Of a stretch of 64,000 nt of DNA, positions 6,321 to 59,357 are shown one piece after another. Below the pieces are notes generated by a model. It worked only from the letters and a program-made list of their open reading frames with translations. It ran no database searches and was not told the DNA's origin. Numbering within the stretch: position 1 is the first letter of the stretch; each line of letters opens with the position of its first letter. The translations under genes were made by a program, and so were the position numbers. Origin of the DNA: Malacoraja senta (taxonomy: Eukaryota); contig CM075993.1 in NCBI GenBank assembly GCA_038087875.1, positions 1,924,001 through 1,988,000 of the forward strand. Direction: 5' to 3'.

Positions 6321-6546
6321 AGGGCCTCTCCCACTTACACAACCTTTTTTACTCGTGGACATTTCTCATCAGGCTAGAAAAAACGCCCCGACCTACTTGA
6401 TGCCACGAGTACCTACGACTAGCATCACGGCCTGCTACGACCTACCTACGACCTCCTACGACCTCGTGACGGCCATGCTGCGAGTATGAGTCAAGGGCAA
6501 ACTCGGCAGAGGTCGTGAATTAGGTCGTGAAAGTTGGACAGGCCCT
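6321..6546. mobile_element. PIF/Harbinger-type MITE (family C)
   Basis: AGGGCCTCTCCCACTT...AAGTTGGACAGGCCCT termini, TTA TSD (6318-6320, 6547-6549), internal CTACGAC repeats. Confidence 0.85.
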
Positions 6547-7422
6547 TTACCCGGAGTTTAACATTTCAGGAAAGACGTGGAGGCTTTGAAGAGGGGGCGG
6601 GAGGAGGGTTACCAGAACGCCCTCCGGGTTAGAGGGTCTCAGCTTGGATAGACTTGTGTTTTCTCCAGAATGCCAGAGGTTGAGAGAGGATTGATATTGT
6701 CTATTGTCTATATCAAATTATAAGAGACTTAGTTTAGTTTGAGATTCCAGCGCGGAAACAGCCCCTTCGGCCCATCAAGTCTACACCGACCAGCGATCCC
6801 CGCACAGTAACACGATCCTAGATGCTAGGAGACGGTTACATTTGTACTAAGCCAACTAAACCACAATCCCGGACATCATAAGTCGGGTAAACAGTCCGAT
6901 CCGTTTTCCCCAAGGTGGAAATGTCCAAAACTAGGACTCCTAGGGGCAGCACAGTGGAGCAGTGTAGAGTTGCTGCCTTACAACGCTAGAGATGCAGGTT
7001 CAATCCTGACTACGGGTGCTGTCTGTACGGTTTAATAGATGAATGCTTAATTCTGCTCCCAAATTGACGAACATATCACCCGCTGAATTACTCCAACACT
7101 TTGTGTCTTCGCTTTATCCGAGGTCTGGCTGCTCTCACCCTGTTTAACATATTTGGGTTTATAATCAGTTAGTGGGTGGGTGCAAGCCAAAAGATAAAAG
7201 ATTTAATGAAGTGTTTATCTCTGTTTATCAAAAGAATCATTCTCTTTTAAAATGTCGCTAACATTTACTAAATGAGGCAGTTCATGGTGAAATGGTTTTA
7301 AATATCCGAGTACGAACTTACACAGCTTCACACAGTTGGAGTTGAAAGGAAAAAATAATAATATTTTACTTCAGGCAAACATGGTATTAATGAATTTGAA
7401 ATAAGAAAATAAACAAGTTGCC

Positions 7423-27597: not shown

Positions 27598-28065
27598 ATC
27601 CATGTACCTCAGATAGACACAAAAAGCTGGATTCACTACAACATTTTGTGTCTATCTTCGGTTTAAACCAGCATCTGCAGTTCCTTCCCACACCTTCCAT
27701 GTACCTGTCTAATTGTTTCGAGATTTTCAAGAACAAGCTGCAATTCATGACAGGCATCTTCGCTATCAGCAATACCGCCCACTTTTGTATCAAAGTCACA
27801 AAATCAATGTTCAGAGAAGTAAGTGCAACTCCTGGAAGGTTTGCTTTTCGAAGGCGCGCTTGCTCTTCATCTTCTTGCGTGTGTGGCGTGCACAGCCGAA
27901 AGTTGTAGGACAGCTTGTTCTATTTGATCTTATTTGGTCGTGCACGCCGGGTTGATTGCATTCGTCGAAACAGGGCGGGCCACGTGAAGGTTGCAATCTC
28001 CCCACCCCGCGCTTTCTCTTTAGTGACTCCCCTGAGATTCAGCCGTACAAGTTCCTAGTGACAAC

Positions 28066-28092
28066 CAAAGATCCCCCGCTAAAGGATCTTTG
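28066..28092. mobile_element. 27-bp transposon relic (fused CAAAG termini), putative excision footprint
   Basis: CAAAGATCCC-CCGCTAAAGGATCTTTG flanked by perfect 8-bp direct repeat GTGACAAC (28058-28065, 28093-28100). Ends match the TIR of 58506-58898. Confidence 0.8.
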
Positions 28093-28354
28093 GTGACAAC
28101 TGCCTTGGTGAAGACCTCTGTGGTCAGAAATGCTCATTTGTATTACGCCCCCTGAAGATCAATGACTCTAACGCTCTGAGTCGACAATAAGTGGATTCAT
28201 TCACGAATATCCTTATTGTTGTTGTTATTAATCTAGTACATTGTGCAAACAGCGTCATTTGAAAAATTGATTTATTGAAGCTTGCGGTATGGTTGTTGCC
28301 AGTCGGGATTTCCGTGGCGTCCAAACCGAATCCCCATTTTCATGTTAAGTGTAA

Positions 28355-28603
28355 AGGGCCTGTCCCACTTTCACCACCTAATTCACGACCTTTTCCACTC
28401 GTGGACATTTTTCATCAGGCTAGAAAAAACGCCCCGACCTACTTGATGCCACGAGTACCTACGACTAGCATCACGGCCTGCTACGACCTACCTACGACCT
28501 ATCTACGACCTCCTACGACCTCGTGACGGCCATGCTGCGAGTACGAGTCAAGGGCAAACTCGGCAGAGGTCGTGAATTAGGTGGTGAAAGTGGGACAGGG
28601 CCT
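28355..28603. mobile_element. PIF/Harbinger-type MITE (family C)
   Basis: About 37-bp TIR with one mismatch, TAA TSD (28352-28354, 28604-28606), interior matches 6321-6546. Confidence 0.9.
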
Positions 28604-28688
28604 TAACTTTGTCCAATGAATCGCGGGTCAAGTGACTGTTCCAGTCCTGGATGTCGAGGGTTCGACCAGTGAGTGGATTGTCCATTGT

Positions 28689-33140: not shown

Positions 33141-33926
33141 TCAGTATACAGGTGATTGTTGGTAGGCATGGACTCGATGGGCTGAAGGGCCTGTTTGCAC
33201 CCAACATTGCTATCATCCAGCCAAGGCCAACATCTTGAATATTATGAATGCATTTCAGACCTTAAATAACAATGTAATGGCTCACACTTCTGTTAACCAG
33301 ATTTGAGGTGCATTTTGGATAGAATCCAACCCTATTAGTTGTCTTGGCTGAATTCGATTTTTAAATTATTTTGTAGCTGAAACAATGTTTATCTTTAGGC
33401 TTTATTTTGATTTTCTTTTATTGATTTGAGTTTTCAAAATTGCAAAAAAGAGGGGATGTGGGATGGAATATTTATCAATAATGTGCCGTTAAATGCTTTA
33501 TCTAATCACCTGTCAAATGTAAAATGAATTGCTGCATAAATCAATAGTATTCATCTTATCTGTGCAGGAAGGAACTGCAGATGCTGGTTTAAGCTGAAGA
33601 TAGACACACAATGCCAGAGTAACTCAGCAGGACAGGCAGCGTCTCTGGAGAGAAGGAATGGGTGACGTTTCGGGTCGAGACCCTTCTTCAGACCAAAGAT
33701 TATAGAGCAGAGCAAGATGCGCAACTCTGCGAAAAAAGCGTAGTATGACATGGGTGATTGTTGACGCCATTTTACTGGACTGCAATTTACAATAATAATA
33801 ATAATAATATTTACAATAATATTAACTAAATATGTGAAGTGATAGATGCTATATAAAGCACTGTTCCCCACAACACGGATTACACCATGGATGATAGAAC
33901 GGATCAATCTTTGGAACGGATTACAC

Positions 33927-34558
33927 CAAGTCAAGTCAAGTCAAGTCTAGTGAGTTTATTGTCATGTGTCTCTGGTAGGACAATGAAATTCTTGCTTTGC
34001 TTCAGCACAACAGAACATAGTAGGCATTTACTACAAGACATTCTATAAATATATACACAATGGTCAATATACTGATAAAATGCAAATAACAGTATTGGCC
34101 AGTAAAGTTCAGTGTTATGTCCGAGCCAGGTTTAATAGCCTGATGGCTGTGGGGAAGTAGATATTCCTGAACCTGGTCGTTGCAGTCTTCAGGCTCCTGT
34201 ACCTTCTACCTGAAGGTAGTAGGGAGATGAGTGTGTGGCCAGGATGGTGTGGGTCCTTGATGATGCTGCCAGCCTTTTTGAGGCAGCGTCTGTGGTAGAT
34301 CCCCTCGATGGAAGGGAGGTCAGAGACGATGATGGACTGGGCAGTGTTTACTACTTTTTGTAGTCTTTTCCTCTCCAGGGCACTCAAGTTGCTGAACCAA
34401 GCCATGATGCAACCGGTCAGCATGCTCTCTACTGTGCACCTGTAGAAGTTAGAGAGAGTCCTCCTTGACAAACCGACTCTCTGTAATCTTCTCAGGAAGT
34501 AGAGGCGCTGATGTGCTTTCTTAATAATGGCATCATTGTTCTCGGACCAGCAAAGATC
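33927..34558 (-). mobile_element. Rex1/Babar LINE 3' fragment
   Basis: RTLSNFYRCTVESMLTGCIMAWF..DPHHPGHTLISLLPSGRRYRSLK..FPTAIRLLN and a (CTTGA)n tail. Confidence 0.88.
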
Positions 34559-34732
34559 TAGATACTAGATACTAGAGGAACATTTCCCGCTGACTCGGGA
34601 GCGCTGACGCTTGAGGCTCTGCCGCCAGACAGAGAGCCTGGTGCCGGCCGGCCGGCCGCCTTCATCTGGTATCGGGGAGACCGAGAATCAGTCCTGGATC
34701 AACTCAGGAGTGGAGGAAATGTCCTCTTCCCC

Positions 34733-34764
34733 CAAAGATACTAGAGGAGCCTCCAGTATCTTTG
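34733..34764. mobile_element. 32-bp transposon relic (fused CAAAG termini), putative excision footprint
   Basis: CAAAGATACTAGAGGAG + CCTCCAGTATCTTTG flanked by CTCTTCCC (34724-34731 plus one extra C, and 34765-34772). Confidence 0.78.
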
Positions 34765-34938
34765 CTCTTCCCTGCGACCTGATGTAAGCGCAGATTGTAT
34801 AACTGTGGAGTCCGTCCCCGCTACCAAAGATGTCGCGTTTTGCATTTAAAAATGGCGGCCGTGACGTTCCGTTACGTACTACACGTCACTCCATTGGATT
34901 TCGGAGGAGTGGTCTATCTTGCTCCTCTAGTATCTTTG

Positions 34939-35290
34939 CTTCAGACTAGAGTCAGGGGGAAGGGAACCAAGAGATATAGACGGGGTTGTAGAGAGATAAA
35001 GAACAACGAATGAAAGATATGCAAAAAAGTGACGATGATAAAGGAAACAGGCCGTTGTTTGCTGTTTGTTGGGTGAGAACGAGAAGCTGGTGCGACTTGG
35101 GTGGTGGAGGGATGGAGAGAGAGAATGCAGGGGTTGTTTGAAGTTAGATAAATCAATGTTCGTACCACTGGGCTGTAAGCTGCCCAAGCGAAATATGAGA
35201 TGCTGTTCCTCCAATTGGCGTTTAGCCTCACTCTGACAATGGAGGAGACCTGGGACAGAAAGGTCAGTGTGGGAATGGGAAGGAGAATTA
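34939..35290 (-). mobile_element. Neptune PLE 3' fragment (continues at about 33562-33693)
   Basis: EEQHLIFRLGSLQPSGTNIDLSNFK, the same C-terminus as the GIY-YIG fragment at 37.5 kb. Confidence 0.82.
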
Positions 35291-37344: not shown

Positions 37345-37985
37345 GGTAGACAAAAATGCTGGAGAAACTCAGCGGGTGAGGCAGCATCTATGGAGCGAAG
37401 GAATAGGTGACGTTTCGGGTCGAGACCCTTCTTCAGACTGATGTGAGGGTTGGGGGGGGAGGGGCGGGAAGAAGAAAGGAAGAGGTGGAGCCAGTGGGCT
37501 GAGGGAGAGCTGAGAAGGGGAGGAGAAAGTAGGGACTACCTGAAATTAGAGAAGTCAATGTTCGTACCGCTGGGGTGAAAACTGCCCAAAGCGAAATATG
37601 AGGTGCTGCTCCTCCAATTTGCAGTGGGACTCACTCTGGCCATGGAGGAGGCCCAGGACAGAAAGGTCGGATTCGGAATGGGAGGGGGAGTTGAAGTGCT
37701 GAGCCACCGGGAGATCAGGTTGGTTATTGCGGACCGACCGGAGGTGTTGGGCGAAACGATCGCCAAGCCTGCGCTTGGTCTCACCGATGTAGAGCAGCTG
37801 ACATCTAGAGCAGCGGATGCAATAGATGAGGTTGGAGGAGGTGCAGGTGAACCTCTGACGCACCTTGAACGACTGCTTGGGTCCTTGAATGGAGTCGAGG
37901 GGGGAGGTAAAGCGGCAAGTGTAACATTTCTTGCGGTTGCAAGGGAAAGTGCCCGGGGAGGGGGTGGGAAGGGTGGGCAGGGACG
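37345..37985 (-). mobile_element. Penelope-like element, Neptune-type, 3' fragment
   Basis: GIY-YIG ORF remnant followed by a pyrimidine-rich UTR, hammerhead core (37409-37436) and terminal repeat. Confidence 0.9.
37536..37985 (-). pseudogene. PLE GIY-YIG endonuclease domain with Cys-rich linker, frameshifted near the C-terminus
   Basis: PCNRKKCYTC linker, NLIYCIRCSRCQLLYIGETKRRLGDRFAQH, PVAQHFNSPSH, KLEEQHLIF, then LGSFHPSGTNIDFSNFR in another frame. Confidence 0.88.
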
Positions 37986-38004
37986 AAGGTATGTTTAATG
38001 ATCT

Positions 38005-38425
38005 CTGTAACTTCAAGTAACCCTTACATCCCCCCTCTCTCCATCCCTCCCCCACCCAAGTCATACTGCACATTTGAATGGCGGTGCAGGCTCGAAGGGC
38101 TGAATGGCCTATTCCTGCACCTATTTTCTATGTTTCTGTTTCTATGGCAGCTTCAAAGTCGTCGTTGAGCCTCACTCACCTAGTAACTCGTTCTCACCTA
38201 ATCCACAGCTAACAATGGCCTGTTTCCTTTATCATCCTTATTTCTTTGCACATCTTTCATTCATGTGTTCCATATCTCTCCACATCACCGTCTATATCTC
38301 TCCTTTCCCTCTCCCCTGACTCTCAGTCTGAAGAAGGGTCTTGACCCGAAACGTCACCCATCTCCTTCTCTCCAGAGATGCTGCCTGTCCCGCTGAGTTA
38401 CTCCAGCGTTTTGTGTCTATCTTTG
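38005..38425 (+). mobile_element. Neptune PLE 3' end, head-to-head with the previous fragment
   Basis: AACTTCAAGTAA, UTR, and hammerhead core at 38328-38355. A CR1 tail is inserted at about 38070-38145. Confidence 0.75.
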
Positions 38426-38628: not shown

Positions 38629-38914
38629 GTTTAGTTTAGTTTTAGAGATACAGCGTGGAAACAGGCCCTTCAGCCCGTCCAGTCCGTGCCGACCAGCGAT
38701 CACCTGTTCACTAGTTCTATCCTACACACACTGGGGACAATTTACAGAAGTCAATTAACCTACAAACCTGCACGTTTTTGGAATGTGGGAGGAAACCGGA
38801 GCACCCGGAGAAAACCCACGTGGTCACAGTGAGAACGTACAAACTCCGTACAGACAGCAGCTAAGGTCAGAATCGAACCCGGGTCTCTGGCGCTGTGAGG
38901 CAGCAACTCTACCG
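38629..38914 (-). mobile_element. HE1/V-SINE-type SINE
   Basis: Reverse-complement copy whose 5' head abuts the minisatellite. Confidence 0.88.
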
Positions 38915-39303
38915 CCCAGTGTACTTCCTGTCCCAGTGTACTTCCTGCCCCAGTGTACTTCCTGTCCCAGTGTACTTCCTGTCCCAGTGTACTTCCCGTC
39001 CCAGTGTACTTCCCGCCCCAGTGTACTTCCCGTCCCAGTGTACTTCCCGTCCCAGTGTACTTCCCGTCCCAGTGTACTTCCCGCCCCAGTGTACTTCCCG
39101 TCCCAGTGTACTTCCCGTCCCAGTGTACTTCCCGTCCCAGTGTACTTCCTTCCCCAGTGTACTTCCTGCCCCAGTGTACTTCCTTCCCCAGTGTACTTCC
39201 TGTCCCAGTGTACTTCCCGCCCCAGTGTACTTCCCGCCCCAGTGTACTTTCCGCCCCAGTGTACTTCCCGCCCCAGTGTACTTCCTGCCCCAGTGTACTT
39301 CCC
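38915..39303. repeat. 17-bp minisatellite, 23 in-phase units (CCCAGTGTACTTCCYGY)
   Basis: First unit at 38915 and last at 39289 (22 x 17 apart). Variation is concentrated in the last few bases of the unit. Confidence 0.96.
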
Positions 39304-39589
39304 TAACTCTGTTCTGCCTTGAAACATAGAGAAATGTTGGTCTAAAACCATCCGTTTTACTCATCTTTAAATCATGTCATCAGAAACTTATTATCCACCT
39401 AACAGGTGACACTTTGATTTATGAATTTTTTTGGATCAAATTTAATTTAATGAAGAGTTGGATCAACGAGGAACGTTGTGTTCTGATTGTAATTTTGGAA
39501 CGATTGTCTGAAAGAAGCAGCAGATGTTGGAAAGAAATTAACCTGGAAGTTTCCTTCAATCTACGGCAGATTTCCACCAACACTGGCTG

Positions 39590-40695: not shown

Positions 40696-41241
40696 CACTA
40701 ATGCTATGTAGAAAATACAGCACAAAAATAGGACACGAATTGCTGGAGTAACTCAGCGGGTCAGGCAGCATCTCTGGAGATAAGGAACGGGTGACGTTTT
40801 GGGTCGAGATCCTTCTTCAGACTGATTGTCACAATTGTATTCTTAGTCCTCTGAAGACTCATCATTAGCAATGTCTCCCACTGTTCTCAGCCTCATGTTT
40901 ATCCACACATATATAACGCAAGCAACCATTAGAAATCAGCATGTCGCTTCAATGAAACCAACTACCGTGCATGTGTTGATCCAAAGTATCTTCAAAGAAC
41001 AGTTGGCCCTAATTGCTAATAAAATGTTGTATGAGACCGAGATATCCGCATTTAAAGAAATCATTAACAGATGCTTTGATCTGTCGTTTTCACACCTTAC
41101 CCTTCCATATCTCTAGTCTACCTCTCCCCTGACTTTCATCCTGAAGAAGGGTCTCGACCCGAAACGTCACCCACTCCTTCTCCCCAGAGACGCTGCCTGT
41201 CCCGCTGAGTTACTCCAGCATTTGAAAATAAGTACTCCTGT

Positions 41242-41856
41242 TTGAGTACTGTTGGGGGGGACAGCCTTCCTGGGGGTAGCGACAGCGGCCGGGCCTCCGG
41301 CACAGAGACCGGCCCTATTGCTCAGAAGGGTAGGGAAAAGAAGAGGAGGGCAATAGTAATAGGGGACTCTATGGTTAGGGGGTCGGATAGGCGATTCTGT
41401 GGACGCAGTCAGGAGACCCGGATGGTAGTTTGCCTCCCTGGTGCCAGGGTCAGGGATGTGTCTGAACGCGTCCAAGATATCCTGAAATCGGAGGGAGAGG
41501 AGCCTGAGGTTGTGGTACATATAGGTACCAATGACATAGGCAGAAAAAGAGAAGAGGTCCTGAAAGGAGAATTTAGGGAGTTGGGAGGAGAGTTAAGGAG
41601 AAGGACCGCAAAGGTAACAATCTCGGGATTACTACCTGTGCCACGCGACAGTGAGAGTAGGAATGAAATGAGGTGGAGGATAAATGCGTGGCTGAGGAAC
41701 TGGTGCAGCGGGCACGGATTCAAATTTCTGGATCATTGGGACCTCTTTTGGGGAAGGTGTGACCTGTACAGAAAGGACGCGTTGCACTTGAACCCGAGGG
41801 GGACCAATATCCTGGCGGGGAGATTTGCAAAGGCTACTGGGGAGACTTTAAACTAG
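41242..41856 (+). CDS. CR1 ORF1 C-terminal SGNH/GDSL esterase domain (5'-truncated)
   Basis: IVIGDSMVRG (block I Ser), LPGARV (Gly), HIGTND (Asn), DALHLN (DxxH). True start lost. Confidence 0.9.
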   Translation: MSTVGGDSLPGGSDSGRASGTETGPIAQKGREKKRRAIVIGDSMVRGSDRRFCGRSQETRMVVCLPGARVRDVSERVQDILKSEGEEPEVVVHIGTNDIGRKREEVLKGEFRELGGELRRRTAKVTISGLLPVPRDSESRNEMRWRINAWLRNWCSGHGFKFLDHWDLFWGRCDLYRKDALHLNPRGTNILAGRFAKATGETLN

Positions 41857-41861
41857 AACGG

Positions 41862-44795
41862 TTGGGGGGAGGGACTCAAATAGAGAAAGCTAGTAGAAAA
41901 TGTGGGAGGCAGGAGGCAGAGAAGGGAAGCACTCGGACCCAAAATGTAGGGGAGAAAGAAGAAAAAGATAATAAACAGAGAATAAGTGGTGGTGGGTTTC
42001 TTAAATGTGTATATTTTAATGCTAGGAGCATTGTAAGAAAGGTGGATGAGCTTAGAGTCTGGATTGACACCTGGAAGTATGATGTTGTGGCGATCAGTGA
42101 AACATGGTTGCAGGAGGGCTGTGATTGGAAACTAAATATTCCAGGATTTCGTTGCTTCAGGGGTGACAGAATTGGAGGGGCAAGAGGTGGGGGTGTTGCA
42201 TTGCTTGTCAAGGAAGATATTACAGCAGTGCTTTGGCAGGATAGATTAGAGGGCTCGTCTAGGGAGGCTATTTGGGTGGAACTGAGAAATGGGAAAGGTG
42301 TAGCAACACTTATAGGGGTGTATTATAGACCGCCAAATGGGGAGCGAGAATTGGAAGAGCAAATATGTAAGGAGATAGCAGATATTAGTAGTAAGCACAA
42401 GGTAGTGACTGTGGGAGATTTCAATTTTCCACACATAGACTGGGAAACACATTCTGTAAAAGGGCTGGATGGTTTGGAGTTTGTAAAATGTGTGCAGGAT
42501 AGTTTTTTGCAGCAATACATAGAGGTACCTACTAGAGAAGGGGCAGTGCTGGACCTCCTGTTAGGAAATGAGACAGGGCAGGTGGCGGAGGTATGCGTTG
42601 GGGAGCACTTCGGGTCCAGTGATCACAATACCATTAGTTTCAATATAATTATGGAGAGGGTCAGAACTGGACCTAGGGTTGAGATTTTTGTTTGGAGAAA
42701 GGCTAACTTTGAGGAGATGCGAAAGGATTTAAAAGGAGTGAATTGGGACATGTTGTTTTATGGGAAGGATGTAGAAGAGAAATGGAGGACATTTAAAGGT
42801 GAAATTTTAAGAGTACAGAATCTTTATGTCCCAGTTCGTTTGAAAGGAAATAGTAAAAATTGGAAAGAGCCATGGTTTTCAAGGGAAATTGGACACTTGG
42901 TTCGGAAAAAGAGAGAGATCTACAATAATTATAGGCAGCATGGAGTAAATGAGGTGCTTGAGGAGTATAAAGAATGTAAAAAGAATATTAAGAAAGAAAT
43001 TAGAAAAGCTAAAAGAAGATACGAGGTTGCTTTGGCAAGTAAGGTGAAAGTAAATCCAAAGGGTTTCTACAGCTATATTAATAGCAAAAGGATAACAAGG
43101 AATACAATTGGTCCATTAGAGAGTCAGAGTGGACAGCTATCTGCAGAGCCAAAAGAGATGGGGGAGATATTGAACAATTTCTTTTCTTCGGTATTCACCA
43201 AGGAGAAGGATATGGAATTATGTGAGGTAAGGGAAACAAGCAGAGTAGCAATGGAAACTATGAGATTCAAAGAAGAGGAGGTGCGGACACTTTTGAAAAA
43301 TATGAAAACGGATAAGTCTCGAGGTCCTGACAGGATATTCCCTTGGACATTGAGGGAAGTTAGTGTAGAAATAGCAGGGGCTATGACAGAAATATTTCAA
43401 ATGTCATTAGAAACGGGAATAGTGCCAGAGGATTGGCGTACTGCGCATGTTGTTCCGTTGTTTAAAAAGGGTTCCAAGAGTAAACCTAGCAATTATAGAC
43501 CTGTTAGTTTGACGTCAGTTGTGGGCAAATTAATGGAAAGGATACTTAGAGATAATATATATAAGCATCTGGATAAGCAGGGTCTGATTAGGAAAAGTCA
43601 ACATGGATTTGTGCCTGGAAGGTCATGTTTGACTAATCTTCTAGAATTTTTCGAAGAGCTTACTAGGGAAATTGATGAAGGTAAAGCAGTGGATGTTGTC
43701 TATATGGACTTCAGTAAGGCCTTTGACAAGGTTCCTCATGGAAGGTTGGTTAAGAAGATTCAATTGTTGGGTATTAATGGTGGAGTAGCAAGATGGATTC
43801 AACAGTGGCTGAATGGGAGATGCCAGAGAGTAATGGTGGATGGCTGTTTGTCAGGTTGGAGGCCGGTGACTAGTGGGATGCCTCAGAGGTCTGTGTTGGG
43901 TCCACTGTTGTTTGTCATGTACATCAATGATCTGGATGATGATGTGGAAAATTGGATTAGTAAGTATGCAGATGATACTAAGATAGGTGGTGTGGTGGAT
44001 AATGAAGTAGATTTTCAAAGTCTACAGAGAGATTTAGGCCATTTGGAAGAGTGGGCTGAAAGATGGCAGATGGAGTTTAATGTTGATAAATGTGAGGTAC
44101 TACATCTCGGCAGGACAAATCAAAATAGGACGTACATGGTAAATGGTAGAGAATTGAGGAATGCAGTTGAACAGAGGGATCTAGGAATAACTGTGTATAG
44201 TTCCCTGAAGGTGGAATCTCATGTAGATAGGGTGGTAAAGAAAGCTTTTGGTGTGCTGGCCTTTATAAATCAGAGCATTGAATATAGAAGTTGGGATGTA
44301 ATGTTAAAATTGTACAAGGCATTGGTGAGGCCAATTCTGGAGTATGGAGTACAATTTTGGTCGCCTAATTATAGGAAGGATGTCAACAAAATAGATGGAG
44401 TACAGAGGAGATTTACTGGGTTTCAGCAACTAAGTTACAGAGAAAGGTTGAACAAGTTAGGTCTTTATTCTTTGGAGCGCAGACGGTTAAGAGGGGACTT
44501 GATAGAGGTCTTTAAAATTATGAGCGGGTTAGACAGAGTTGACGTGGATAAGCTTTTTCCATTGAGAGTAGGGAAGATTCAAACAAGGGGACATGACTTG
44601 AGAATTAAGGGACAGAAGTTTAGGGGGAACATTAGGGGGAACTTCTTTACTCAGAGAGTGGTAGCTGTGTGGAATGAGCTTCCAGTGGAAGTGGTGGAGG
44701 CAGGTTCGATTTTATCCTTTAAAAATAGATTGGATGGGTATATGGACGGGAAAGTAATGGAGGGTTATGGTCTGAGTGCAGGTAGATGGGACTAG
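41862..44795 (+). CDS. CR1 ORF2: APE endonuclease plus reverse transcriptase
   Basis: YFNARS, ISETWL, GDFNFP, LDLLL, SDHN (APE); NYRPVSLTS, QHGF, MDFSKAFDKVPH, YADD (RT). Open for 977 codons. PQG is changed to PQR and there is a probable short in-frame deletion at RRFTGF. Confidence 0.95.
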   Translation: MGGGTQIEKASRKCGRQEAEKGSTRTQNVGEKEEKDNKQRISGGGFLKCVYFNARSIVRKVDELRVWIDTWKYDVVAISETWLQEGCDWKLNIPGFRCFRGDRIGGARGGGVALLVKEDITAVLWQDRLEGSSREAIWVELRNGKGVATLIGVYYRPPNGERELEEQICKEIADISSKHKVVTVGDFNFPHIDWETHSVKGLDGLEFVKCVQDSFLQQYIEVPTREGAVLDLLLGNETGQVAEVCVGEHFGSSDHNTISFNIIMERVRTGPRVEIFVWRKANFEEMRKDLKGVNWDMLFYGKDVEEKWRTFKGEILRVQNLYVPVRLKGNSKNWKEPWFSREIGHLVRKKREIYNNYRQHGVNEVLEEYKECKKNIKKEIRKAKRRYEVALASKVKVNPKGFYSYINSKRITRNTIGPLESQSGQLSAEPKEMGEILNNFFSSVFTKEKDMELCEVRETSRVAMETMRFKEEEVRTLLKNMKTDKSRGPDRIFPWTLREVSVEIAGAMTEIFQMSLETGIVPEDWRTAHVVPLFKKGSKSKPSNYRPVSLTSVVGKLMERILRDNIYKHLDKQGLIRKSQHGFVPGRSCLTNLLEFFEELTREIDEGKAVDVVYMDFSKAFDKVPHGRLVKKIQLLGINGGVARWIQQWLNGRCQRVMVDGCLSGWRPVTSGMPQRSVLGPLLFVMYINDLDDDVENWISKYADDTKIGGVVDNEVDFQSLQRDLGHLEEWAERWQMEFNVDKCEVLHLGRTNQNRTYMVNGRELRNAVEQRDLGITVYSSLKVESHVDRVVKKAFGVLAFINQSIEYRSWDVMLKLYKALVRPILEYGVQFWSPNYRKDVNKIDGVQRRFTGFQQLSYRERLNKLGLYSLERRRLRGDLIEVFKIMSGLDRVDVDKLFPLRVGKIQTRGHDLRIKGQKFRGNIRGNFFTQRVVAVWNELPVEVVEAGSILSFKNRLDGYMDGKVMEGYGLSAGRWD

Positions 44796-47470: not shown

Positions 47471-48807
47471 ATATGAGGGTAGACAAAAATGCTGGAGAAA
47501 CTCAGCGGGTGAGGCAGCATCTATGGAGCGAAGGAAATAGGCAACGTTTCGAGCCGAAATCCTTCTTCAGACCCAAACTCAAATATGAGGGTCTGCTTTA
47601 CCTAATGTAACTGATAATATACTGTCTATTTATTTGCCGTGACATGTTAAATGTTGTGGTGAAGCAAGTAACCGAGCAAGTGAGAAATTTATCGTTCCAT
47701 GTTCCGGACAATTAAAATCTATGGATTTTTCTTTGTTTTATTTGGATGTTAGGAAATATACAGAGATGGTGTCAGAATGCACCAATTGGCAATTTCAAAA
47801 GTGTCACCAGCTCAATTTTGTTAAAGTGCTGTGAAAGGCACAGAGTTGTTTCAATAATAGAAATTCTTGGTCGAGGTTGTTCTTTATTTGAAAAGTGCTA
47901 ATTGCAATGTTCTTGCTATCAGCTGAACAAATCAGGCGAGCCGTGCCCTGAAGCTGGCTTGCACCGTTTGTGGTGAGCTAAAGCACAATGGGGTTCAGCC
48001 TTAACGCTGTTCTGTACCCCAACAATGTTGGAACCACAATGCTGGAGTAACTCAGCGGGACGGGCAGCATCTCTGGAGAGAAGGAATGGGTGACGTTTCG
48101 GGTCGAGACCCTTCTTCAGATGTGAAGACTTCATTTCAAATCAAGTATAATAATATTCTAAGATAGACACACAAACGCTGGAGTAACTCAGGGGGTCAGG
48201 CAGCATCTCTGGAGAGAAGGAATGGGTGACGTTTCTGGTCGACTGTCTGTACAGAAGGAATGGTCTGAAGAAGGGTGTCGAGCCGAAACGTCACCCATTC
48301 CTTCTCTCCAGAGAGGCTGCCTGCCCTGCTGAGTTACTCCCCATTTCTCATGATTCTGTTAGAATATGATTTCCAGGGCGGTACAATGATACAACTAGTA
48401 GAACCACTGAAGTAGAGCACCAGAGACCACGGTTCAATCCCAACGTCGAGTGCTGTCCGTGTGGAGTTTGCACATTCTCCCTGTGACCTTAAGGTTCTCC
48501 AGTTTCCTCCCATTTCCCAAAGACGTGCGAGTGTGTGGTTTACCTGCCACTGTAAATTGTCCTCTTTCTTGGTGAGGTGACATTAGATTGGACGAGTGAT
48601 GATTCAATTCATAAGTTCATAACTTCTAGAAGCAGAAGTAGGCCATTCGGCCCATCGGGTCTACTCCACCATTCAATCATGGCTGATCTATCTTTCCCTC
48701 TCAACCCCATTCTCCTGCCTTCCCCCCCCCTAACCCCTGACACCCGTACTAATCCTGAATCTATCAATCTCCACTGTAAAAATTAAACATGAGGAAATTC
48801 AAAATGA

Positions 48808-55711: not shown

Positions 55712-55929
55712 ACGGCCTGTCACACTTTCATGACCTAATTGCCGAGTTTGCCCTTGACTCATACTTGCAGCATGGCCGTCACGAGGTCGTAGGTCGGTGG
55801 TAGGTAGGTCGTGATGCTAGTCGTAGGTACTCGTGGCATCAAGTAGGTCGGGCGTTTTTTCTAGCACGATGAAAAATGTCCACGAGTAAAAAAGGTCGTG
55901 AATTAGGTCATGAAAGTGGGACCGGCCCT
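55712..55929. mobile_element. PIF/Harbinger-type MITE (family C, opposite orientation)
   Basis: GGCCTGTCACACTTTCATGACCTAATT...AATTAGGTCATGAAAGTGGGACCGGCC termini, TAA TSD (55709-55711, 55930-55932). Confidence 0.85.
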
Positions 55930-56211
55930 TAATTCAGATACACAGAGGAAGAGAAGCCATCTCTTTCCCAACCATGTCTATGTTGACCAACCATCTGAAT
56001 GATGGTCACAACATGCTGGAGTAACTCAGCGGGACAGGTAGCATCTCTGGAGAGACGGCACAGGCGACGTTGTGGGTCGAGACCCTTCTCTTGATCTGTA
56101 GCCTTCTCTGTCTTGGCCTCTAGATGTCCTCTTCTGGTTACCCCTTCAAGACAGAGTGGGACTACCTGCCTCCACCATCCATTCAGGAAGTGCAGACATT
56201 AAATTGTAACT

Positions 56212-57955: not shown

Positions 57956-58505
57956 ACGGGTGGGAGCCTGAGTTAATGTGAGTTTGTGATTGAGTAAATG
58001 ATCTGGGCTGAGCGAGTGGTGTCATGGTCGCCTGGGTGAATTGGAACAGGCATGGTGTCGTACAACACAACAACAGGCCCTTTCCAAAGGTGGACACAAA
58101 AAAGTGCTGGAGTACCTCAGCGGGACGGGCAGCATCTCTGGAGAGAAGGGAATGGGTGACGTTTGGGGTCGATGTTAATCTGCATGTTAATCTGTCCCTT
58201 GACTTGAATGCTACCAATGCATCTTATCTCAATTCTTCATTGTCTGAATAAACCTCCCAGCTATGAAGTTCTCCTCTCTGCTGTCATTATGAGTTATCAC
58301 CAAAATGGTTCCTGTTTTTTGTACTATCCTTGAATATTCAGCCTGTAGAAATGTGACCTTCATTTTGCTAAAAGTTTGGCTGTTCTAAGCTGCCAAGCCT
58401 GTAGTTGGTGATAGTCATTGCAACTGATCAAGCCGGTTGGCCCAGAACACTGCTCCAACCACCAGCCTTTGACCAACAATCTGCCTATCAGGGAACCCCC
58501 TCATA

Positions 58506-58898
58506 CAAAGATCCTATAGCGAGCAAGATAGCCCACTCGACGGAAAAGACGTAGTACAGTCACGGGCAGATTCATGGGTAATTTTCGGCCCCATTTCCGT
58601 AACCGGTTTCCGTCTCCGCACCAAAGATCCCGTCATAGCGGAGCAAAGATAACTAGTGCGGAGACGGAATTCGGTTACGGAAACATCCTGGTAAAAATAA
58701 AAGTTATTTGGGAAAAATCTTCTCCTCATTTTCAGAATTATAATTTATTAACACAAACTGTTCCCCCGCAACGCTGATTACACTGCGGGTCGGGTCGGGT
58801 CGGGTTACGGAAATGGATGAAATAAAGGCCCACGTTCTGCTCCATTGCGTGCTACACTTCAGAAGGAGTGGTCTATCTTGCTTGCTATAGGATCTTTT
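58506..58898. mobile_element. CAAAG-terminated MITE (P-like or hAT), 393 bp
   Basis: 33-bp TIRs matching at 30 of 33 positions (58506-58538, 58866-58898). 8-bp TSD CCCTCATA/CCCTCATC with one mismatch. Confidence 0.85.
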
Positions 58899-59357
58899 CC
58901 CTCATCTGTTGCCAGAGATAGACACCAAAAGCTGGAGTAACTCAGTGGGACAGGCAGCATCTCTGGAGAGAAGGAATGGGTGACGTTTCCGGTCGAGACC
59001 CTTTCTTCAGACGGAGAGTCTGGGGAGAGGGAGACGAGAGATATAGACGGGGATGTAGAGAGATATGGAACAACTGAAAGAAAGATGTGCAAAAAAGTAA
59101 TGATGATAAAGGAAACTGGCCATTGTTGGCTGTTTGTTGGGTGAGAATGAGTGCAGGCAATGTGACTAAAATAAGACAACTTTGAAGCTGGTACGACTTG
59201 TGTGTGGGAGGGATGGAGAGAGAGGGAATTATATCATCTGTTGCCAGCTCTCATTTCGCTGCCAGTTTCTTTTGTTACGAGCTATACAGTCAATGGAAAC
59301 ACCATTCTTGATTATTGTAGTAGCCATTTAGCCAATTATGATCAAGCTGTCCACAGG

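What the first reader, a model, noticed from the sequence alone, without database searches (positions are those of the whole stretch)
28058..28100. Putative P-element-type excision footprint: fused transposon ends inside a perfect 8-bp TSD
Seen: GTGACAAC-[CAAAGATCCC + CCGCTAAAGGATCTTTG]-GTGACAAC. The 27-bp insert is about 10 nt of one terminus plus about 16-17 nt of the other terminus of the MITE family at 58506-58898. Established: P-element transposase makes a staggered cut that leaves 17-nt 3' extensions of the TIRs at the donor site, so end-joining leaves footprints with up to about 17 nt of each end between the two TSD copies. hAT transposases leave no transposon sequence behind. Inference: this is a germline excision scar of a P-superfamily (THAP9-like) system in a cartilaginous fish.
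Basis: partly seen in the sequence, partly recalled or inferred. Interest (0 to 1): 0.8.

Follow-up and report, generated by a model that had tools for sequence, protein, structure and literature searches.

The report
P-type transposon excision scar
Two short stubs of a jumping gene's tips lie fused between two copies of an 8-base target word, and with two more such remnants they are likely scars left when a P-element-type transposon cut itself out of the germ line of what is probably a cartilaginous fish, which would mean the fruit-fly element's unusual 17-base staggered cut was also used in a vertebrate.

Summary
A perfect 8-bp direct repeat encloses 27 nt made of about 10 + 17 nt of the CAAAGAT-ended terminal inverted repeat (TIR) of a local MITE family; 0 of 100 simulated windows gave such an arrangement. 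A public run reproduces the site with no differences. An orthologue in a second organism keeps the same-length insert, and a third organism's orthologue stops matching exactly at the end of the left repeat, which suggests an empty site. I found two more scars: 34724-34772 in the window (17+15 nt) and one in a related organism (17+17 nt, in a high-copy repeat whose other copies are empty). Four of six retained ends are about 17 nt and none exceeds about 19, as predicted for the 17-nt staggered cut of P transposase; hAT excision leaves no such stubs. No transposase could be linked to these ends, so P membership is inferred from geometry on three scars. Verdict: probably a germ-line P-type excision scar, a known kind in a new vertebrate setting.

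The parts
28058..28065 (+). Left copy of the 8-bp target site duplication of scar 1
   Evidence: the orthologue in run X2 stops matching exactly at 28065 (tables 3 and 5)
28066..28075 (+). Left TIR stub, 10 nt (9 match the MITE TIR; base 10 matches in organism A)
28076..28092 (-). Right TIR stub, 17 nt (15 of first 16 match the MITE TIR; base 17 fits a longer TIR variant)
28093..28100 (+). Right copy of the 8-bp target site duplication of scar 1
34724..34772 (.). Scar 2: 8-bp repeat (34724-34731, one extra C at 34732), 32-nt insert 34733-34764 = 17 (or 18) nt identical to the TIR at 34938 plus 15 (or 14) nt of its reverse complement with one mismatch, 8-bp repeat 34765-34772
33694..34938 (.). 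1245-bp composite non-autonomous element of the same family: left end of one TIR subfamily, right end of another, with a LINE fragment (about 33930-34550) and scar 2 inside
33686..33693 (+). Left 8-bp target duplication of the composite element (right copy 34939-34946); three other copies of the host repeat in the window carry this word once
58506..58898 (.). 393-bp MITE with about 32-bp imperfect TIRs, an internal 28-bp-arm hairpin and a 7-of-8 target duplication (58498-58505, 58899-58906); reference for the TIR of scar 1
27880..28002 (.). Very high-copy 120-bp repeat beside scar 1; one copy of it in organism C (run X4) carries scar 3 (17+17 nt) at the position matching 27973-27980
   Evidence: tables 2, 3 and 5c

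Best explanation
The 27-base insert is two fused transposon tips inside an 8-base target duplication, likely the end-joined scar left when a cut-and-paste element of the CAAAGAT-ended family was excised by a transposase that probably cuts 17 (possibly 18) bases inside each tip, as Drosophila P transposase does. Steps: (1) an element inserted and duplicated 8 bp (shown for the family by empty sites; for this site suggested by organism B). (2) The transposase cut at the tip on one strand and about 17 nt inside on the other, so each chromosome end kept a 3' single-stranded tail of TIR sequence (inferred from the length cap). (3) The two non-complementary tails were joined, one whole and one trimmed to about 10 nt, perhaps through 1-2 nt of microhomology (inferred). 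(4) This happened in the germ line before organisms F and A diverged (inferred from the shared insert). The scar is predicted to be inert.
For: Geometry of scar 1. Scar 2, 17+15 nt, in the window. Scar 3: run X4 has a contig of depth 31.9 that goes from 27976 back to 27973 with 38 letters between; read by eye these are 4 letters completing an 8-bp duplication plus 17 + 17 nt of CAAAGAT-type TIR, in a repeat whose other copies have the word once (table 5c). Four of six ends are about 17 nt. Under a flat 7-30 nt null, P = 0.003 for four or more of six in a 3-nt band and 0.025 for all six at most 19 (rough, n = 3 scars). The cap falls at the same distance from the tip in TIR subfamilies whose sequence differs there, which fits a ruler-type cut better than a sequence hotspot. 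8-bp duplication shown at 33694-34938 by 3 empty copies. PMC7776569: P cuts 17 bp inside its TIRs and makes 8-bp duplications. PMC2895639 Table 1: repaired P donor sites keep up to 17 nt of each end between the 8-bp repeats, one listed class (1 isolate) being 27 nt long. PMC8151067: hAT elements excise blunt or with 1 nt, hairpin on the flank.
Against: No transposase is linked to these ends: none among 145 window frames, no family member in the viral, metagenome or prokaryote collections, no genome held. Only three scars. Scar 3 was read by eye from a table that shows at most 40 letters, so longer remnants could not appear there; its halves each carry 2-3 mismatches to the nearest window TIR and its right repeat copy is inferred from the majority base. 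Base 17 of scar 1 does not match the MITE at 58506. All three joints have or may have 1-2 nt of microhomology reaching TIR base 18-19, which also suits a host deletion. The empty site in organism B is inferred from where an alignment stops; the letters were not shown. Target words do not separate P (GTCCGGAC) from hobo (GTNCGNAC).
Confidence: 0.75

Rival explanations
1. Host-made internal deletion without a staggered cut: the two TIRs of an inserted MITE pair as a hairpin and replication or repair slips across it at 1-2 nt of microhomology (as in Tn10 nearly precise excision), or abortive gap repair after excision of a hAT-type element copies only the tips.
For: The scars and the MITE fold into hairpins. 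The joints have or may have 1-2 nt of microhomology. Such remnants are known for Tn10 (recalled; also earlier AI note e1-074544). An 8-bp duplication fits hAT as well as P.
Against: Four of six ends sit at about 17 nt in different TIR variants. The best direct repeat for slippage is the 8-bp duplication itself, which would give a clean excision (inference).
Confidence: 0.13
2. An excision scar made by a long staggered cut, but by a transposase outside the P superfamily, from one of the 8-bp-duplicating groups whose cutting chemistry I recall as uncharacterised (for example Zisupton, Merlin, Novosib).
For: The geometry speaks to the chemistry, not to the protein family; no transposase was found; a published terminal-motif table could not be retrieved.
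Against: The 17-nt cut is described as distinguishing P from other characterised cut-and-paste elements (PMC7776569). The length here matches it. A 2015 survey found Zisupton only in teleosts among vertebrates (PMC4350176; one chondrichthyan sampled).
Confidence: 0.08
3. A tiny mobile element of 27-34 bp that inserts by itself and makes the 8-bp duplication.
For: Short matches limited to about 28058-28100 occur in further contigs of runs X1, X2 and X4, so similar-length units exist at other loci.
Against: The three examples differ in length and subfamily and lack the inner half of the TIR. Drosophila P needs over 100 bp at each end (PMC1562414). Repeated identical junctions are also expected from end joining (14 isolates of one class in PMC2895639 Table 1).
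Confidence: 0.04

Closest known systems
Drosophila melanogaster P-element donor-site repair junctions (PMC2895639 Table 1; mechanism in PMC7776569)
   Same: Both 8-bp target copies kept; up to 17 nt of each TIR fused between them; one end often whole and the other trimmed; short microhomology at the joint; TIRs of about 31 bp.
   Different: Those are laboratory products in Rad51-mutant flies with a known transposase. These are old, fixed, natural sites in a vertebrate, the TIR starts CAAAGAT instead of CATGATG, and the transposase is unknown.
Zebrafish Pdre elements and THAP9 (PMC10983969)
   Same: Vertebrate P-like system with 8-bp duplications and TIRs starting with CA.
   Different: Pdre2 has 13-bp TIRs of other sequence. 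The text I read reports larger flanking deletions after zfTHAP9 excision and does not map a 17-nt cut (its supplementary junction figures were not seen).
Anopheles gambiae P-MITEs (PMC1562414)
   Same: Short non-autonomous families with 27-31-bp TIRs and 8-bp duplications, including a composite MITE with ends from two subfamilies, like 33694-34938.
   Different: There the autonomous THAP-bearing partners are identified; no excision scars were described in the passages seen.
hAT excision footprints (Hermes, Tol2, Ac/Ds; PMC8151067)
   Same: 8-bp duplication; similar target words.
   Different: hAT scars arise from flank hairpins and hold no long transposon stubs; these scars hold 10-17 nt of each tip with both target copies intact.

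Membership tests
P superfamily of DNA transposons | 7-8-bp target site duplication | tested here: met
   8 bp at scar 1, scar 2, the composite element (3 empty copies), the MITE (7 of 8) and scar 3
P superfamily of DNA transposons | TIRs of about 30 bp beginning with CA | tested here: met
   30 of 32 bp at 58507-58538 vs 58866-58897; not diagnostic, since hAT ends can look alike (recalled)
P superfamily of DNA transposons | 17-nt staggered cut leaving TIR tails at the donor site | tested here: inconclusive
   Indirect only: three scars with ends 10/17, 17/15, 17/17, none above about 19; suggestive, small sample, 17 vs 18 unresolved
P superfamily of DNA transposons | Autonomous partner encoding THAP domain, RNase H DDE core and GTP-binding insertion | not testable with these tools
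   No genome held; no transposase in 145 window frames or in the MITE frames; no family member in the searchable collections
P superfamily of DNA transposons | Target preference near GTCCGGAC | tested here: inconclusive
   Five target words; three share GT.. or ..GAC ends, but the hobo motif is nearly the same
hAT superfamily | Excision through flank hairpins, leaving no long transposon stubs | tested here: not met
   All three scars keep 10-17 nt of each tip with intact target copies against PMC8151067; holds only if the scars are direct excision products
hAT superfamily | 8-bp target site duplication | tested here: met

The most novel reading that the evidence does not exclude
These fishes hosted a large, multi-subfamily P-element radiation whose transposase kept the 17-nt staggered cut of Drosophila P, and its excisions left many thousands of fixed germ-line scars: a fossil read-out of a vertebrate THAP9-type transposase's cutting position and of how a vertebrate germ line joins long non-matching 3' tails.
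Probability: 0.5. Interest if true: 0.65.

Novelty: new member of a known kind. Interest (0 to 1): 0.5.

Why it matters
The 17-nt staggered cut has been mapped for Drosophila P transposase; in the text I read on zebrafish THAP9 it was not mapped for a vertebrate homologue. Natural scars capped at 17 nt would show from sequence alone that this chemistry is conserved between insects and vertebrates. They would also assign an unclassified MITE family to the P superfamily without a protein, point to genomes that may hold integration-competent vertebrate P transposases, and give a large natural data set on germ-line end joining. Two scars in 64 kb hint that they are common, but one of them is the reason this window was chosen. 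The scar itself is predicted to have no function.

Tried and rejected
Whole-genome scan: impossible, no genome held. Transposase in the window: 145 stop-free, non-low-complexity frames of 82 aa or more (of 411 frames of 60 aa or more) were scanned against Pfam; 6 matched, all read as retroelement pieces, none a transposase. Short frames in the two elements show no THAP pattern by eye. Family members elsewhere: 0 in viral contigs; 73 of 73 metagenome matches lacked the CAAAGAT tip; 3 of 3 prokaryote-genome matches had no further likeness. All are treated as chance. Rfam: 0 matches in the window, so no known RNA family. A fuzzy search for more scars gave 3 hits: the two scars and one unrelated SINE-like stretch at 47484, dropped. 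Assembly artefact: rejected. Organism C's orthologue skips 27984-28107 and is uninformative for scar 1. Only 4 of 24 listed runs were laid; the small word shares of the others are no evidence. Earlier notes of this scan: nothing on this genome or sequence. Literature: no paper held CAAAGATCC with transposon terms. Searches listed no report of P-type scars in a vertebrate genome or of P MITEs in cartilaginous fishes (listings and abstracts only; subscription papers and Repbase/Dfam not searchable). The terminal-motif consensus for P that I recall was not found in print.

Full report
OBSERVATION. The structure is in the sequence as described: identical 8-mers at 28058-28065 and 28093-28100 enclose 27 nt whose ends are a perfect 9-bp inverted repeat. 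It is the only such arrangement in the window with an inverted repeat of 7 bp or more, and 0 of 100 Markov-simulated windows produced one. The insert matches the ends of the 393-bp MITE at 58506-58898, which has 30 of 32 bp inverted ends and a 7-of-8 target duplication. The left stub matches TIR bases 1-9; the right stub matches 15 of bases 1-16. Base 17 differs from this MITE but fits a one-base-longer variant suggested by the end at 33694 and the internal repeat at 58622.

CONTEXT. The window is repeat-rich animal DNA. Of 145 frames scanned against Pfam, 6 matched, all read as CR1-like, other LINE or Penelope pieces, and none was a DNA transposase; Rfam found nothing. That the host is a cartilaginous fish, probably a skate or ray, is my recall of the SINE-like repeats and comes from no call. 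No whole genome is held.

MORE MEMBERS IN THE WINDOW. A composite element spans 33694-34938, with ends from two TIR subfamilies and a LINE fragment inside. It is flanked by a perfect 8-bp repeat and splits a host repeat. Among 58 left-flank and 5 right-flank hits in the window, 3 copies of that host repeat run through the site with the word once. So the family makes 8-bp duplications. Inside this element lies a second scar (34724-34772): an 8-bp repeat with one extra C on the left, around 32 nt made of 17-18 nt identical to the TIR at 34938 plus 14-15 nt of its reverse complement with one mismatch. Close pairs of the two 7-nt tip motifs occur 2 times in the window against 1 time in all 100 simulations together.

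OTHER GENOMES. Of 24 runs listed, one (X24, organism F) holds 0.90 of the words. I laid 4 of them on 27700-28350. X24 has one contig over 27981-28350 with 0 differences; it may be the source sample. X1 (organism A) has an orthologous contig, about 9% diverged, across 27952-28112. The distance figures show no net indel between 28038 and 28112, so the 27-nt insert is shared, and it has T at 28075, the TIR base. The event is therefore old and inherited. In X2 (organism B) the orthologous alignment ends exactly at 28065 and resumes at 28174. A full element or a scar would have matched on into CAAAGAT, so an empty site is the simplest reading, but the letters were not shown. X4 (organism C) lacks 27984-28107. 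Table 5c of the same call gave an unplanned third scar. One X4 contig (depth 31.9) of the high-copy repeat at 27880-28002 runs to 27976, adds 38 letters and returns to 27973. Read by eye, 4 letters complete an 8-bp duplication (7 of 8 against the majority sequence) and 34 letters are 17 nt of a CAAAGAT-type TIR plus 17 nt of its degraded reverse complement. The repeat's other copies are the empty site. That table shows at most 40 letters, so longer remnants could not have appeared. Finally, X1, X2 and X4 each have a few further contigs at about single-copy depth that match only about 28058-28100, which may be similar scars at other loci; X24 showed none, and their letters were not shown.

MECHANISM. 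P transposase cuts at the tip on one strand and 17 bp inside the TIR on the other, and makes 8-bp duplications (PMC7776569, sections 7 and 8 read). Repaired donor sites keep up to 17 nt of each end between the two target copies; one listed class (1 isolate) totals 27 nt (PMC2895639, section with Table 1 read; Rad51-mutant flies). hAT elements leave blunt or 1-nt ends with the hairpin on the flank (PMC8151067, passages). Here the six retained ends are 10/17, 17/15 and 17/17 nt. Shared bases at the joints allow 18 for several ends and up to 19 for one, so a 17- or 18-nt cut both fit. Under a flat 7-30 nt null, four or more of six ends in a 3-nt band has P = 0.003 and all six at most 19 has P = 0.025. 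These figures are rough: three scars, one partly dependent on the TIR variant, one from a length-limited table. The cap lies at the same distance from the tip in subfamilies whose sequence differs there, which favours a cut measured from the end over a sequence hotspot. Shown: the structures, the 8-bp duplication, sharing between organisms. Inferred: the staggered cut, end joining, P membership.

RIVALS. Host deletion across the TIR hairpin or abortive gap repair (0.13) explains the microhomologies but not the absence of ends between 20 and 32 nt. A non-P transposase with the same long cut (0.08) cannot be excluded without the protein. A self-mobile mini-element (0.04) is unlikely given the varied lengths. 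Target words do not help: P and hobo motifs are almost the same (PMC3276498, passages with Table 4).

COMPARISON AND NOVELTY. It works like a Drosophila P donor-site scar. Membership of the P superfamily is likely but not shown: no autonomous partner was found in the window or in the viral, metagenome and prokaryote collections. Vertebrate P-like systems are known (PMC10983969, parts 1-2 of 7 and passages read; its supplementary junction figures were not seen and may bear on whether vertebrate THAP9 leaves such stubs). P-MITEs, including a two-subfamily composite, are known in Anopheles (PMC1562414, passages). Searches listed no report of natural P-type scars in a vertebrate or of this family. 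I saw listings and abstract starts only for most of these, and Repbase, Dfam and subscription journals were out of reach, so the family may already be classified there. Also consulted without decisive content: PMC3698922, PMC4350176, PMC5753468, PMC12973397, PMC9587614 (passages; one section of PMC4350176), PMC10824691 (term search, no hits). Earlier AI notes of this scan describe hAT-type palindromic scars and a Tn10 remnant in other genomes; they serve only as contrast.

VERDICT. A real feature, probably a germ-line P-type excision scar (0.75); a new member of a known kind; interest 0.5. It would rise to about 0.65 if a genome-wide tally shows a sharp 17-nt edge and a THAP transposase is found between these ends.

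Noticed in passing
window 34724-34772: Second scar (17+15 nt) nested inside an element whose own right TIR is of the same subfamily, possibly a hop into a sister copy followed by excision.
   Followed up: yes
window 33694-34938: Composite element with ends from two TIR subfamilies, one perfect 8-bp duplication, a LINE fragment inside and a degraded third tip with small tandem duplications at 34551.
   Followed up: partly
window 58594-58683: The MITE has an internal hairpin with about 28-bp arms (z = -10) enclosing an internal copy of the TIR motif at 58622.
   Followed up: no
window 41209-44795: CR1-like LINE with an SGNH/GDSL-type ORF1 piece and an uninterrupted 1010-aa endonuclease plus reverse-transcriptase frame, so probably young.
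   Followed up: no
window 27880-28002: About 120-bp repeat at very high copy number in all four runs laid, with sharp ends and no Rfam match; type not determined.
   Followed up: partly
window 28351-28607 (also 6338-6550, 55716-55930): Another MITE family with about 41-bp inverted ends, flanked by TAA/TTA-like words; several related families across the window.
   Followed up: no
window 37555-38127: GIY-YIG-bearing frame, probably the end of a Penelope-like element.
   Followed up: no
window 38760-39370: Minisatellite of about 39-bp units giving long open frames on both strands.
   Followed up: no
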